Shown here one piece after another: positions 50,201-56,573 of a stretch of DNA of 64,000 nt (position 1 is the stretch's first letter; the number at the start of each line of letters is the position of its first letter). Location: NCBI RefSeq assembly GCF_046105845.1, contig NZ_CP151004.1; one strand, written 5' to 3'. The DNA is from Escherichia coli (GTDB taxonomy: Bacteria; Pseudomonadota; Gammaproteobacteria; Enterobacterales; Enterobacteriaceae). The translations under genes were made by a program, and so were the position numbers. Under the pieces are notes generated by a model, which did not search any database, was not told where the DNA came from, and saw only the letters and a program-made list of their open reading frames with translations.

Positions 50201-51743
<1,543 letters not shown>

Positions 51744-51919
51744 AAAAGTTTGATGCTCAAAGAATTAAACTTCGTAATGAATTACGTGTTCACTCTTGAG
51801 ACTTGGTATTCATTTTTCGTCTTGCGACGTTAAGAATCCGTATCTTCGAGTGCCCACACAGATTGTCTGATAAATTGTTAAAGAGCAGTTGCGACGCGGC
51901 TTTCAGCTCACTGTCGCGA

Positions 51920-52070
51920 GGTGGCGTATACTACGCTTTCCTCTTTCAGAGTCAACCCTGAATTTCAGGATTTTTTCTCTTCAACCGAACCGGCTGTTTG
52001 TGTGAAGTGATTCACATCCGCCGTGTCGATGGAGGCGCATTATAGGGAGTTCTCCGCAGGCCGCAATAGA
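51920..52070 (-). promoter_or_regulatory. rrn tandem promoters P1 and P2
   Basis: Reverse strand shows ctccctataatgcgcc (P1 -10 TATAAT) and ttgact-N16-tagtat (P2), then the rrn leader cgcaactgctctttaacaatttatcagacaatctgtgtgggcactcgaagatacggattcttaac. Confidence 0.65.
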
Positions 52071-52237
52071 AAAATTGCAGAAAAATGACTGACTGCTGCA
52101 TTCCCCAGCAAAACCCCGCTTTATACCTTTTTACGCACAGAGTTATCCACAATCATCAATGTAATTTCTGTATTTTTCCCACGGTAAACACTGTCAAAAT
52201 TGTGATCACCATTGAAAGAGAAAAATTCGCGAGCGTT

Positions 52238-52360: not shown

Positions 52361-53950
52361 ATGCAACAACGTCGTCCAGTCCGCCGCGCTCTGCTCAGTG
52401 TTTCTGACAAAGCCGGTATCGTCGAATTCGCCCAGGCACTTTCCGCACGCGGTGTGGAGCTGCTGTCTACAGGGGGCACTGCCCGTCTGTTAGCAGAAAA
52501 AGGTCTGCCGGTAACCGAAGTTTCCGATTACACCGGTTTCCCGGAGATGATGGATGGACGCGTGAAGACCCTGCATCCGAAAGTACATGGTGGCATTCTG
52601 GGCCGTCGCGGCCAGGACGATGCCATTATGGAAGAACATCAGATCCAGCCTATCGATATGGTAGTTGTTAACCTGTATCCGTTCGCCCAGACCGTTGCCC
52701 GTGAAGGATGCTCGCTGGAAGATGCGGTTGAGAACATCGATATCGGCGGCCCAACGATGGTGCGCTCCGCCGCCAAGAACCATAAAGATGTCGCAATCGT
52801 GGTGAAGAGCAGCGACTACGACGCCATTATTAAAGAGATGGATGCCAACGAAGGATCGCTGACGCTTGCAACCCGTTTCGACCTCGCCATTAAAGCCTTC
52901 GAACACACTGCCGCCTACGACAGCATGATTGCCAACTACTTCGGCAGCATGGTTCCGGCTTACCACGGTGAAAGCAAAGAAGCCGCCGGTCGCTTCCCAC
53001 GCACGCTGAACCTGAACTTCATTAAGAAGCAGGATATGCGTTACGGCGAGAACAGCCACCAGCAGGCTGCCTTCTATATAGAAGAGAATGTGAAAGAAGC
53101 CTCCGTTGCTACCGCAACCCAGGTTCAGGGTAAAGCCCTCTCTTATAACAACATCGCCGACACCGATGCGGCGCTGGAGTGCGTGAAAGAGTTCGCCGAG
53201 CCGGCATGTGTGATTGTGAAGCACGCCAACCCTTGCGGCGTGGCTATCGGCCATTCCATTCTTGATGCTTACGATCGCGCGTACAAAACCGACCCGACCT
53301 CCGCATTCGGCGGCATTATCGCCTTTAACCGCGAGCTGGATGCGGAAACCGCGCAGGCCATCATTTCTCGTCAGTTTGTTGAAGTGATTATTGCGCCGTC
53401 CGCCAGCGAAGAAGCCCTGAAAATCACCGCCGCCAAACAGAACGTGCGCGTCCTGACCTGCGGTCAGTGGGGCGAGCGTGTTCCGGGCCTTGATTTCAAA
53501 CGCGTGAACGGCGGTCTGCTGGTTCAGGATCGAGACCTGGGGATGGTCGGAGCAGAAGAACTGCGCGTCGTCACCAAACGTCAGCCGACCGAACAGGAAC
53601 TGCTTGATGCGCTGTTCTGCTGGAAAGTGGCGAAGTTCGTGAAATCCAATGCTATCGTCTATGCCAAAAACAATATGACCATCGGCATTGGCGCGGGCCA
53701 GATGAGCCGCGTGTACTCCGCGAAAATCGCCGGTATTAAAGCGGCCGATGAAGGTCTGGAAGTGAAAGGTTCCTCGATGGCTTCTGACGCGTTCTTCCCG
53801 TTCCGCGACGGTATTGATGCCGCCGCCGCTGCGGGCGTGACCTGCGTAATCCAGCCTGGCGGTTCTATCCGTGATGACGAAGTGATTGCCGCCGCCGATG
53901 AACACGGTATTGCAATGCTCTTCACCGACATGCGCCACTTCCGCCATTAA
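52361..53950 (+). CDS. purH: Bifunctional AICAR transformylase / IMP cyclohydrolase
   Basis: 529-aa [30 protein letters not shown]... Confidence 0.95.
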
Positions 53951-53961
53951 TGGAGCAATAG

Positions 53962-55251
53962 ATGAAAGTATTAGTGATTGGTAACGGCGGGCGCGAGCAC
54001 GCGCTGGCCTGGAAAGCGGCCCAGTCGCCGCTGGTTGAAACTGTTTTTGTTGCTCCGGGTAATGCAGGCACTGAGCTGGAACCCACACTGCAAAACGTCG
54101 CTATCGGCGTAACCGATATCCCGGCGCTGCTGGATTTCGCGCAAAACGAAAAGATCGATCTAACCATCGTCGGCCCGGAAGCGCCGCTGGTGAAAGGCGT
54201 AGTGGATACCTTCCGCGCCGCCGGGCTGAAAATCTTCGGCCCAACCGCAGGTGCCGCGCAGCTGGAAGGCTCGAAAGCGTTTACCAAGGATTTCCTGGCC
54301 CGCCATCAGATCCCTACGGCGGAATACCAGAACTTCACCGAGGTAGAACCTGCGCTGGCGTATCTGCGTGAGAAAGGCGCGCCAATCGTCATTAAAGCTG
54401 ACGGTCTGGCTGCCGGGAAAGGCGTTATCGTGGCGATGACGCAGGAAGAAGCGGAAGCGGCTGTTCACGATATGCTGGCGGGCAACACTTTTGGCGACGC
54501 GGGGCATCGCATCGTTATCGAAGAGTTCCTCGACGGCGAAGAAGCGAGCTTTATCGTGATGGTGGACGGTGAGCATGTGCTGCCGATGGCCACCAGCCAG
54601 GATCACAAACGCGTAGGCGATAAAGATACCGGGCCGAACACCGGCGGGATGGGCGCTTACTCCCCTGCGCCAGTAGTGACCGATGAGGTTCATCAGCGCA
54701 CGATGGAACGAATCATCTGGCCAACCGTGAAAGGCATGGCGGCAGAAGGCAACACCTACACCGGTTTTCTCTACGCGGGCCTGATGATCGACAAACAGGG
54801 CAATCCGAAGGTTATCGAATTTAACTGCCGCTTTGGCGATCCGGAAACCCAGCCGATTATGCTGCGCATGAAGTCCGATCTGGTTGAGCTCTGCCTGGCA
54901 GCCTGTGAAGGTACGCTTGACGAGAAAACGTCCGAGTGGGATGAACGCGCTTCTCTCGGCGTGGTGATGGCTGCGGGTGGATATCCGGGCGATTACCGCA
55001 CCGGCGATGTGATCCACGGCCTGCCGCTGGAAGAAGTGTCTGACGGCAAAGTGTTCCACGCGGGCACGAAACTGGCGGATGACGAGCAGGTAGTGACCAG
55101 CGGCGGGCGCGTACTGTGCGTCACCGCGCTGGGTCATACCGTGGCAGAAGCGCAGAAACGCGCCTACGCCTTAATGACCGATATCCATTGGGACGACTGC
55201 TTCTGCCGGAAAGATATCGGCTGGCGCGCTATCGAACGCGAGCAGAACTAA
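53962..55251 (+). CDS. purD: Phosphoribosylamine-glycine ligase
   Basis: 429-aa ORF MKVLVIGNGGREHALAWKAAQSPLVETVFVAPGNAGT... Confidence 0.95.
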   Translation: MKVLVIGNGGREHALAWKAAQSPLVETVFVAPGNAGTELEPTLQNVAIGVTDIPALLDFAQNEKIDLTIVGPEAPLVKGVVDTFRAAGLKIFGPTAGAAQLEGSKAFTKDFLARHQIPTAEYQNFTEVEPALAYLREKGAPIVIKADGLAAGKGVIVAMTQEEAEAAVHDMLAGNTFGDAGHRIVIEEFLDGEEASFIVMVDGEHVLPMATSQDHKRVGDKDTGPNTGGMGAYSPAPVVTDEVHQRTMERIIWPTVKGMAAEGNTYTGFLYAGLMIDKQGNPKVIEFNCRFGDPETQPIMLRMKSDLVELCLAACEGTLDEKTSEWDERASLGVVMAAGGYPGDYRTGDVIHGLPLEEVSDGKVFHAGTKLADDEQVVTSGGRVLCVTALGHTVAEAQKRAYALMTDIHWDDCFCRKDIGWRAIEREQN

Positions 55252-56573
55252 CGCGACAGTTTTGCCAATAGCGTTTTGCGCGTGATCCCTAACTGACGGG
55301 CGGCTTCGGTTTTGTTGCCGCCCGTTTTCTCCAGCGCCGCCAGAATCACCTCTTTTTCCACTTCCACCAACGGCTGAATATCCTGACTTTGCCCCAGCGG
55401 GATCGGCGTACTGGCAATCGCCAGCGGCAGCTCGCGTTCGGAAATATATTCCCCGGTCAGCAGCACCACCGCCCGTTCCACCGCGTTTTCCAGTTCACGA
55501 ATATTTCCCGGCCAGTCGTAGTGAATCAGCAGATCCATCGCCTGGGGCGTAAAGCCTTTTACCGCCTTGCGATTACGCTCGGCAAAGCGCTGAAGAAAAT
55601 GGTTTGCCAGCAGAGGAATATCTTCCCGCCGCTGACGCAGCGACGGAACTTCAATCGCCACCACGTTCAGGCGATAGTAGAGATCCTGGCGAAAACGCCC
55701 GGCATTCACCTCTGCGGCAAGATCGCGATGAGTCGCCGCAATCAGCCGGACATCAACCGAGATGGTCTGGTTGCTGCCGACACGCTGAACTTCGCGCTCC
55801 TGAATCGCACGCAGCAGACGCACCTGCATCATCGGCGAGATATCGCCAATTTCATCGAGAAACAGCGTGCCGCCGTCCGCCTCAACAAAGCGCCCTTCCC
55901 GCCGTTTGTCGGCTCCGGTAAACGCCCCTTTTTCGTGACCGAACAATTCAGATTCCAGCAAGGATTCGTTGAGTGCCGCACAGTTGAGCGTTACCAGTGG
56001 TTTTTCACTCCGTGCGCTACTGGCGTGAATCGCCCTGGCGACCAGCTCTTTACCGGTGCCGGAATCGCCGTGGATCAGCACTGTGGCTTCCGATGGCGCG
56101 ACGAGGGCGATTTCACTGAGCAGGTGTTGCATCGCCGGGCTTTTACCGACCATACCGAACTGGCTGGCAGACACCGCAGGCGTTTCAGCGTCAACACTGT
56201 GCGTATGTGCGAGCGCCTTTTCCAGCGTCGCCTGCAGGTTATCGAAATCCAGCGGCTTGATGAGATAATCCAGCGCCCCGGTTTTCAACGCCTCTACCGC
56301 CGTCTCGACGCTGGAGTACGCGGTCATAATCAGCACCGGAATCGCGGGGTTTAATGTTTTGATCTCTTTCAGCGTGGCGATGCCATCCATCTCTGCCATT
56401 CGCACATCGCAAAGCACAAGATCAAAAACCTGTTCCCGCACCTGCTCCAGCGCCTGTCGCCCGCTGTTCGCAAGCGCCACGTTATAGCCCCAGCCGCGCA
56501 GCAAAGCCTGCAAAATAGTGCAGTGGCTAATGTCATCATCCACCACCAGAATATCGATATTATCGTGTGTCAT
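55248..56573 (-). CDS. zraR: Sigma54-dependent response regulator
   Basis: 441-aa ORF; receiver domain, AAA+ sigma54-activator domain ([14 protein letters not shown]), C-terminal HTH. Confidence 0.9.

What the first reader, a model, noticed from the sequence alone, without database searches (positions are those of the whole stretch)
55248..55251. purD and zraR stop codons overlap tail-to-tail
The convergent genes share the tetranucleotide ctaa (TAA for purD, TAG for zraR on the other strand), so there is no intergenic terminator. Read-through from the highly expressed purHD operon would be antisense to zraR.
Basis: seen in the sequence. Interest (0 to 1): 0.2.

Follow-up and report, generated by a model that had tools for sequence, protein, structure and literature searches.

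The report
purD terminator hidden inside zraR
The purine gene purD and the zinc-stress regulator gene zraR do end on the same four bases, but this is an annotated, common arrangement, and purD transcription stops about 82 bases later at a conserved terminator hairpin written into zraR's last codons.

Summary
purD (53962-55251, +) ends in TAA at 55249-55251. zraR (55248-56573, -) ends in TAG, the reverse complement of CTA at 55248-55250. The two coding sequences share CTAA. RefSeq annotates the same 4-nt overlap in E. coli K-12.

There is no intergenic terminator, but there is one inside zraR. A perfect 9-bp GC-rich hairpin (55296-55304 / 55317-55325, about -21 kcal/mol) is followed by UUUUCUCC. 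It lies within the zraR codons [11 protein letters not shown] published map of K-12 RNA 3' ends places the purD terminus at 4204560, which is window position 55333. That is 8 nt after the stem and 82 nt past the stop codon.

Across 40 distinct orthologues from Escherichia, Salmonella, Citrobacter, Klebsiella and Phytobacter, purD and zraR always overlap, by 4 or 11 nt. Five of the six synonymous third positions in the stem never vary, against 3 of 101 elsewhere in zraR (p = 3e-6).

Published data place a Rho termination region on the zraR strand about 266 nt past its stop, inside purD antisense. The pair is already listed as a convergent "excludon". The case is ordinary and known, and of low interest.

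The parts
53962..55251 (+). purD coding sequence (phosphoribosylamine--glycine ligase), second gene of the purHD operon. Stop codon TAA at 55249-55251.
   Evidence: ORF. TIGR00877 purD, 631 bits. RefSeq annotation of the homologous region.
55248..56573 (-). zraR coding sequence (sigma-54-dependent response regulator). Stop codon TAG is the reverse complement of 55248-55250.
   Evidence: ORF. NF007689 ZraR, 995 bits. RefSeq annotation.
55248..55251 (.). CTAA tetranucleotide that holds both stop codons (4-nt tail-to-tail overlap of the coding sequences).
   Evidence: Conserved as CTAA in 27 loci and CTAG in 1. In 17 loci purD reads through it in another frame, giving an 11-nt overlap.
55252..55333 (+). 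purD 3' UTR (82 nt), lying wholly inside the zraR coding sequence and antisense to it.
   Evidence: Published primary 3' terminus of purD at K-12 4204560 (-), listed with a 3' UTR length of 83 (PMC10687069). The K-12 sequence is identical here.
55296..55325 (+). Terminator hairpin. 5' arm ACGGGCGGC at 55296-55304, 12-nt loop at 55305-55316, 3' arm GCCGCCCGT at 55317-55325. It is antisense to zraR codons [10 protein letters not shown].
   Evidence: Inverted repeat I1, 9 nt, 100% complementary. RNA fold gives a 10-bp stem; the 66-nt context folds at -22.6 kcal/mol, z = -2.2. Stability is -20 to -22 kcal/mol in all 15 orthologous variants. Synonymous sites are invariant.
55326..55333 (+). U-rich tail TTTCTCCA. 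With T55325 the RNA reads GUUUUCUCCA, and the mapped RNA 3' end is at 55333.
   Evidence: In the non-Escherichia orthologues the tail is TTTTTTC.
54848..55147 (-). C-rich, G-poor stretch on the zraR-sense strand, 100-400 nt past the zraR stop and inside purD antisense. It holds the published Rho termination region (K-12 4204911 = window about 54982).
   Evidence: C/G ratio of 1.3-1.6. PMC7815308 Supp. file 2 gives position 4204911 (+), antisense to purD, Rho score 4.28, p = 5.7e-8.
56570..57946 (-). zraS (sensor kinase), upstream gene in the zraSR operon.
   Evidence: NF007688 ZraS, 885 bits. ORF.
52361..53950 (+). purH, first gene of the purHD operon.
   Evidence: TIGR00355 purH, 906 bits. 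ORF.

Best explanation
purD and zraR are convergent genes whose stop codons interlock on CTAA, so each transcript has to end inside the other gene. The purHD transcript ends at an intrinsic (Rho-independent) terminator written into the antisense strand of the zraR helix-turn-helix codons. This is a 9-10 bp GC-rich hairpin (55296-55325) followed by a U-rich tail, and the RNA is released at about 55333, 82 nt past the purD stop. The synonymous codon choices ACG, GGC, GGC, GCC, GCC and CGT in zraR are held fixed to keep the stem. The codons (GAR) AAA A.. of E-K-T supply the U tract. The zraSR transcript has no hairpin terminator of its own. It runs antisense into purD and ends in a Rho termination region about 266 nt past its stop. 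A short sense/antisense overlap is therefore built in: about 86 nt from purHD, and up to about 350 nt when both operons are transcribed. Shown here: the anatomy, the conservation and the synonymous-site constraint. Shown in published data: the purD 3' end and the bicyclomycin-sensitive read-through on the zraR strand. Inferred: that the hairpin itself causes termination, that the Rho-terminated RNA is the zraSR transcript, and any regulatory consequence.
For: Hairpin and tail. The published purD 3' terminus is at K-12 4204560 (-), peak 4204559-4204568, signal 0.93, adjusted p = 5e-9, 3.4e-8 and 0 in three LB libraries (PMC10687069). The K-12 sequence is identical to the window here, and position 4204560 is the A of GCCGCCCGUUUUCUCCA, 8 nt after the stem, the distance expected for intrinsic termination. 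Conservation: the stem is identical in Citrobacter werkmanii and in all 46 metagenomic orthologues. Stem codons are ACG, GGC, GGC, GCC and GCC in 36 of 36 unique sequences and CGT in 33 of 36, while the loop threonine codon uses all four bases. Across the whole zraR gene, 5 of 6 stem fourfold sites are invariant against 3 of 101 other fourfold sites (Fisher p = 3e-6; 40 unique sequences at 77-93% nt identity). Ten distant NtrC-family homologues share the xGGxxxxAAx peptide but form only 2-7 of the 9 pairs, so the peptide alone does not dictate the stem. Hairpin stability is -20 to -22 kcal/mol in all variants, with a 6-U tail outside Escherichia. The taxa are E. albertii, Salmonella enterica, Citrobacter freundii and portucalensis, Klebsiella, K. 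michiganensis and Phytobacter. Polymorphism within E. coli falls outside the stem and tail. Rho end on the zraR strand: PMC7815308 Supp. file 2 and the C-rich composition. A general precedent is that about 21 of 58 E. coli convergent overlaps carry a predicted Rho-independent terminator inside the partner's coding sequence (PMC2174442).
Against: The curated Term-seq 3'-end tables of Adams et al. list no 3' end near 4204560, and the TERMITe supplements do not mention purD or zraR. Experimental support therefore rests on one RNAtag-seq data set taken at low purD expression. The E. coli U tract is interrupted (UUUUCU) and the 12-nt loop is long for a canonical terminator, so efficiency may be modest; the simple consensus scan did not call it. 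Termination efficiency, Rho independence and in vitro termination were not measured. All stem pairs are invariant, so there is no compensatory covariation. The support is conservation of synonymous sites only.
Confidence: 0.8

Rival explanations
1. There is no effective terminator, so purHD transcription reads far into zraR, producing a long antisense RNA that interferes with zraSR expression by transcriptional interference or RNase III cleavage.
For: There is no intergenic space. The E. coli U tract is imperfect. zraR-purD is listed as a convergent excludon in at least 50% of 58 MG1655 RNA-seq samples (PMC12288877). Adams et al. did not call a purD 3' end.
Against: A significant 3' terminus lies 8 nt after a hairpin of about -21 kcal/mol. 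The hairpin is held fixed at synonymous sites across genera, which is hard to explain if it does nothing. Any transcribed gene pair with overlapping coding sequences meets the ExcludonFinder criterion, so that listing says nothing about the length of read-through.
Confidence: 0.1
2. The 3' end at 55333 is a processed end. purHD transcription terminates further downstream, by Rho or by collision, and 3'-5' exonucleases trim the RNA back to the stable hairpin, which acts as a protective cap rather than a terminator.
For: Rho-terminated transcripts in E. coli are commonly trimmed back to stem-loops (stated in PMC7815308, and the subject of PMC6061677). purD mRNA past its stop is untranslated, so Rho could load on it.
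Against: From established knowledge, trimmed ends usually lie at the base of the stem. This end is 8 nt downstream, at the end of a U-rich tract, and that tract is a clean U6 in the other genera. No Rho termination region is listed on the purD strand at this locus; the only entry mentioning purD or zraR in Adams Supp. file 2 is on the zraR strand.
Confidence: 0.07
3. The conserved hairpin serves zraR or the DNA rather than purD. It could be a structure in zraR mRNA that affects translation or stability, or a protein-binding palindrome in the DNA.
For: The stem forms equally on the zraR-sense RNA (-23.5 kcal/mol for the 66-nt context). Synonymous conservation alone cannot tell which strand is under selection.
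Against: On the zraR-sense strand the stem is followed by CAGUUAGG with no U tract, it lies inside a translated ORF, and that fold is not unusual (z = -1.5). The mapped RNA end is on the purD strand. The A-rich codons that give the U tract are also conserved. Rfam has no match at the junction.
Confidence: 0.03

Closest known systems
4-nt tail-to-tail overlaps of convergent genes (CTAA/TTAA/CTAG/TTAG class), as analysed by Lillo & Krakauer 2007 (PMC2174442)
   Same: It is exactly this class. Two real genes on opposite strands have stop codons that interlock on CTAA.
   Different: Nothing differs in kind. Here the overlap is also shown to persist across at least five enterobacterial genera, sometimes shifted to 11 nt.
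Intrinsic (Rho-independent) terminators embedded in the coding sequence of a convergent neighbour
   Same: A GC-rich stem-loop with a U-rich tail, an RNA 3' end 8 nt after the stem, located inside the partner's ORF. Lillo & Krakauer found predicted examples in about 21 of 58 E. coli convergent overlaps.
   Different: The loop is long (12 nt) and the E. coli U tract is interrupted. The stem is built from the reverse-complementary codon pairs Thr ACG/Arg CGT and Gly GGC/Ala GCC of a helix-turn-helix motif. This gives an unusually clean signal of synonymous constraint.
Convergent excludons (overlapping 3' transcription of neighbouring genes), ExcludonFinder 2025 (PMC12288877)
   Same: zraR-purD is named in that paper's E. 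coli MG1655 core list, and the transcripts overlap at their 3' ends.
   Different: Mutually exclusive expression and RNase III processing have not been shown for this pair. The overlap from the purD side is short and bounded by a terminator.
Bidirectional intrinsic terminators between convergent genes, and collision-assisted termination (Wang et al. preprint 10.1101/2022.10.23.513370)
   Same: A convergent gene pair with a single stem-loop near the gene boundary.
   Different: The hairpin has a U tract on the purD strand only. On the zraR strand it lies inside the translated ORF and is followed by CAGUUAGG. The zraR strand instead shows a Rho termination region.

Membership tests
4-nt convergent stop-codon overlap | Both overlapping ORFs are genuine genes. 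| tested here: met
   PurD and ZraR score far above the curated NCBIfam cutoffs, and RefSeq annotates both.
4-nt convergent stop-codon overlap | The two stops lie on opposite strands within one of the tetramers CTAA, TTAA, CTAG or TTAG. | tested here: met
   CTAA at 55248-55251. The class is defined in PMC2174442.
Intrinsic (Rho-independent) terminator | A stable GC-rich stem-loop in the nascent RNA. | tested here: met
   A perfect 9-bp stem, 10 bp with a G-U pair, at about -21 kcal/mol.
Intrinsic (Rho-independent) terminator | A U-rich tract immediately 3' of the stem. | tested here: met
   UUUUCUCC in Escherichia, which is interrupted, and UUUUUUC in Salmonella, Citrobacter, Klebsiella and Phytobacter.
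Intrinsic (Rho-independent) terminator | An RNA 3' end 7-9 nt after the stem in vivo. | tested here: met
   The published terminus at 4204560 is 8 nt after the stem (PMC10687069). This is one data set, and the end is not in the Adams et al. tables.
Intrinsic (Rho-independent) terminator | Termination is independent of Rho and reproducible with purified RNA polymerase. | not testable with these tools
   This needs Term-seq with and without bicyclomycin on the purD strand, and in vitro transcription. No Rho region is listed on the purD strand in Adams Supp. file 2, which is only weak indirect support.
Bidirectional terminator | The hairpin is flanked by an A tract upstream and a U tract downstream, so that it terminates both strands. 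| tested here: not met
   The zraR-sense strand has CAGUUAGG after the stem, and the stem lies inside the translated zraR ORF.
Excludon | Transcripts of the two neighbouring genes overlap. | tested here: met
   The purD 3' UTR covers 82 nt of zraR. A Rho region on the zraR strand lies 266 nt inside purD. The pair is listed in the ExcludonFinder core set.
Excludon | Expression of one gene suppresses the other, through transcriptional interference or RNase III cleavage. | not testable with these tools
   No data were found. It needs expression measurements under purine starvation and zinc induction, and an rnc mutant.
Rho-dependent termination of the RNA on the zraR strand | Read-through increases when Rho is inhibited. 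| tested here: met
   Literature only: Rho score 4.28, p = 5.7e-8 at 4204911 (+). Reads upstream/downstream were 74/17 without bicyclomycin and 172/169 with it (PMC7815308 Supp. file 2). The assignment of this RNA to zraSR is inferred from strand and position.
Rho-dependent termination of the RNA on the zraR strand | A C-rich, G-poor untranslated RNA upstream of the termination zone. | tested here: met
   C/G ratio of 1.3-1.6 at 100-400 nt past the zraR stop on the zraR-sense strand. The enrichment is modest.

The most novel reading that the evidence does not exclude
The conserved overlap and embedded terminator might form a regulatory link between purine biosynthesis and the Zra envelope/zinc stress system. 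When purHD is de-repressed, its 3' UTR, plus any read-through past the weaker Escherichia U tract, would pair with the helix-turn-helix-coding 3' end of zraSR mRNA and lower ZraR output. Conversely, induced zraSR transcription would run about 270 nt antisense into purD. The arrangement would then be kept for regulation and not only for compactness.
Probability: 0.08. Interest if true: 0.4.

Novelty: already known. Interest (0 to 1): 0.12.

Why it matters
It matters little beyond annotation. The case shows that overlapping convergent stops do not mean a missing terminator. The terminator can sit inside the neighbour's coding sequence, where it constrains synonymous codon choice. Five of the eight fully invariant fourfold sites in zraR belong to the stem. 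That is useful for people who recode or refactor genomes, because synonymous changes in these six zraR codons would probably damage purHD termination. It also matters for interpreting antisense signal at zraR in RNA-seq data.

Tried and rejected
- The built-in promoter/terminator scan of 54400-56200 found nothing at the junction. It allows loops of 3-8 nt only, so it missed the hairpin with its 12-nt loop. Reading the sequence, the repeat finder and folding found it.
It returned one true orthologue (Citrobacter werkmanii) and 79 distant NtrC-family paralogues. Ten of the paralogues served as a negative control.
- The search for homologous proteins listed only E. coli and E. albertii clusters in its top 120, so it gave no other genera.
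- Orthologues were obtained instead with a back-translated DNA pattern against metagenome contigs. One glycine codon was set to GGH to exclude E. coli.
- TERMITe supplements: no purD or zraR entry.
- Dar & Sorek and ExcludonFinder: no supplements are held as text.
- Adams et al. Term-seq tables: no 3' end at 42045xx-42046xx.
- Rfam with permissive thresholds: nothing at the junction.
- No intrinsic terminator for zraR was found within purD. The fold of the 131 nt spanning the zraR stop (55130-55260, minus strand) is not unusual (z = -1.3). The only minus-strand consensus hit is a weak 5-bp stem about 600 nt downstream.
- Covariation analysis of the stem was not possible, because all the pairs are invariant.

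Full report
**Observation.** The sequence at 55240-55259 reads gagcagaaCTAAcgcgacag. The six-frame ORF list gives 53962..55251 on the plus strand (429 aa) and 55248..56573 on the minus strand (441 aa). The plus-strand gene therefore stops at TAA 55249-55251. The minus-strand gene stops at TAG, the reverse complement of CTA at 55248-55250. The stop codons share two bases and the coding sequences share four. Curated NCBIfam models identify the proteins as PurD (631 bits, cutoff 288) and ZraR (995 bits, cutoff 760). The flanking genes are PurH, ZraS and ZraP.

**It is already annotated and belongs to a known class.** The 1-kb region around the junction is present in 5420 of 5426 complete E. coli genomes. 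RefSeq annotates the same 4-nt overlap in strain GF60. It does so in K-12 MG1655 as well, with zraR at 4203320..4204645 and purD at 4204642..4205931 on the other strand. Lillo & Krakauer (PMC2174442) describe CTAA, TTAA, CTAG and TTAG as the tetramers behind a spike of 4-nt convergent overlaps in prokaryotes. They counted 58 convergent overlaps in E. coli. They also noted that in such pairs any Rho-independent terminator must lie inside the partner's coding sequence, and they found predicted terminators of that kind in about 21 of the 58.

**What lies downstream of the purD stop.** Reading on from the stop shows ...ctaactgACGGGCGGCttcggttttgttGCCGCCCGTtttctccagc. The repeat finder reports a 9-nt, 100% complementary inverted repeat at 55296-55304 / 55317-55325 with 12 nt between the arms. 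As RNA on the purD strand it folds into a 10-bp stem. The 66-nt context folds at -22.6 kcal/mol (z = -2.2), and the stem is followed by UUUUCUCC. The consensus terminator scan missed it because that scan allows loops of 3-8 nt only. On the other strand these bases are the zraR codons ACG GGC GGC AAC AAA ACC GAA GCC GCC CGT. They encode [10 protein letters not shown] in the C-terminal helix-turn-helix. The stem pairs Thr ACG with Arg CGT, and each Gly GGC with an Ala GCC. The U tract is the complement of the preceding codons, GAG AAA and the A of ACG.

**Experimental support from the literature.** The TRS study (Nat Commun 2023, PMC10687069) mapped RNA 3' termini in E. coli K-12 MG1655 grown in LB.
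- Its Supplementary Data 2 lists a minus-strand peak at 4204559-4204568, dominant position 4204560, signal 0.93. The adjusted p-values are 5e-9, 3.4e-8 and 0 in three libraries.
- Its Supplementary Data 4 assigns this peak as the primary 3' terminus of purD, with a 3' UTR length listed as 83 nt.
- The K-12 sequence is identical to the window here. Position 4204560 is the final A of GCCGCCCGUUUUCUCCA, which is window 55333, 8 nt after the stem. That is the distance expected for intrinsic termination (established knowledge).

For the other strand, Adams et al. (eLife 2021, PMC7815308, Supplementary file 2) list a Rho termination region at 4204911 (+), antisense to purD. It has a Rho score of 4.28 and p = 5.7e-8. 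That position is 266 nt past the zraR stop, at about window 54982. I read this RNA as the zraSR transcript from its strand and position, which is an inference. The zraR-sense strand there is moderately C-rich, with a C/G ratio of 1.3-1.6. ExcludonFinder (NAR 2025, PMC12288877) names zraR-purD among 165 convergent excludons found in at least half of 58 MG1655 transcriptomes.

Some evidence points the other way. The curated Term-seq tables of Adams et al. contain no 3' end at this site, and the TERMITe supplements do not list it. purD expression in LB is low, at about 0.06 read starts per position.

**Comparative evidence generated here.** In Citrobacter werkmanii the CTAA overlap and the stem are identical, and the tail is UUUUUU. 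A back-translated DNA pattern for [16 protein letters not shown] was searched against metagenome contigs and returned 46 loci. All third codon positions in the stem were left free, and one glycine codon was set to exclude E. coli.
- Exact PurD matches assign representatives to Salmonella enterica, Citrobacter freundii and portucalensis, Klebsiella, K. michiganensis, Phytobacter/Metakosakonia and Escherichia albertii.
- In all 45 usable loci purD is convergent with zraR and overlaps it. The overlap is 4 nt in 28 loci (CTAA in 27, CTAG in 1). It is 11 nt in 17 loci, where purD reads through CTAA in another frame and ends ...EKANG* or ...EKTNG*. The zraR stop is always TAG.
- The stem codons are ACG, GGC, GGC, GCC and GCC in 36 of 36 unique sequences and CGT in 33 of 36. 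The threonine codon in the loop uses C, G, T and A (9, 7, 18 and 2 sequences).
- A codon alignment of the whole gene used 40 unique sequences at 77-93% nucleotide identity to the window. Only 8 of 107 fourfold-degenerate sites have an invariant third base, and 5 of those 8 are stem positions (Fisher one-sided p = 3e-6).
- Ten distant NtrC-family homologues carry the same xGGxxxxAAx peptide. They were not checked for a neighbouring purD. They form only 2-7 of the 9 pairs, so the peptide does not force the stem.
- All 15 terminator variants fold at -20 to -22 kcal/mol.
- The common polymorphism within E. coli in this 51-nt stretch is at 55335, outside the stem and tail.

**Interpretation.** The best explanation (confidence about 0.8) is that purHD ends at an intrinsic terminator embedded antisense in the last codons of zraR, and that this terminator is maintained by selection on synonymous sites. 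The RNA on the zraR strand ends by Rho action inside purD antisense. Transcription further in depends on how much passes the terminator, and that has not been measured. The interrupted U tract in Escherichia suggests the terminator could be leakier there than in the other genera, which is an inference.

The rival explanations are:
- unrestrained read-through;
- a trimmed 3' end following termination further downstream;
- a role for the hairpin on the zraR strand or in the DNA.

Each rival is weakened by the position of the 3' end, the U tract being present on one strand only, and the synonymous-site constraint. None is formally excluded.

**Novelty and verdict.** The overlap is in the reference annotation. 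Its class was described in 2007. The pair is named in a 2025 excludon catalogue, and the purD 3' end is in a 2023 data table. What this work adds is the link between that 3' end and a specific hairpin inside zraR, and the demonstration of synonymous-site constraint across genera. That is a tidy example of a known kind, not a new one. Interest is low (0.12).

Noticed in passing
window 56570-56573 (minus strand): The zraS stop and the zraR start overlap co-directionally by 4 nt. The ORF coordinates (zraS 56570..57946, zraR 55248..56573, both on the minus strand) imply an ATGA overlap. This is the usual sign of translational coupling within the zraSR operon.
   Followed up: no
window 55248-55250; proteins P0004 (469 aa) and P0003 (456 aa): Rare single-member E. 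coli ZraR variants have lost the TAG stop and run on for 15-28 residues into purD antisense (...KLSRQFCSRS... and ...KLSRYSCSRA...). A CTAA to CTGA change would keep a purD stop (TGA) while turning the zraR stop into Gln, so one base decides both genes' ends.
   Followed up: partly
window 55326-55333 compared with loci L003 and L083-L128: Escherichia (E. coli and E. albertii) uses GAG for Glu in L-E-K-T, which gives an interrupted tail UUUUCU. The Salmonella, Citrobacter, Klebsiella and Phytobacter orthologues use GAA, which gives UUUUUU. The Escherichia terminator may therefore be weaker.
   Followed up: partly
window 51500-51743 (minus) and 51865-52099 (minus): The 5' end of a 16S rRNA gene (Rfam SSU_rRNA_bacteria, 150.6 bits, cut off by the start of the searched stretch) lies divergently upstream of purH, as rrsE does in K-12. 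The rRNA leader region gives a match to Yersinia sRNA Ysr197 that is below the gathering score (112.5 bits against 167).
   Followed up: no
window 58043-58609 (plus): The mechanical ORF for zraP is 188 aa, but the ZraP profile matches only residues 48-188, and RefSeq annotates 141 aa (426 nt). The real start codon is therefore probably internal to this ORF.
   Followed up: no
locus L087 (human gut metagenome contig): The PurD encoded next to zraR has a C-terminal two-thirds typical of Klebsiella but a strongly divergent N-terminal third or so (about 140 residues). The contig may be a chimeric assembly or the gene a recombinant.
   Followed up: no
window 54750-55750: The best match among 5426 complete E. 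coli genomes is only 98.8% identical over this 1 kb, although the terminator region itself is identical to K-12. The window seems to come from a lineage that is not closely represented in the collection at this locus.
   Followed up: no
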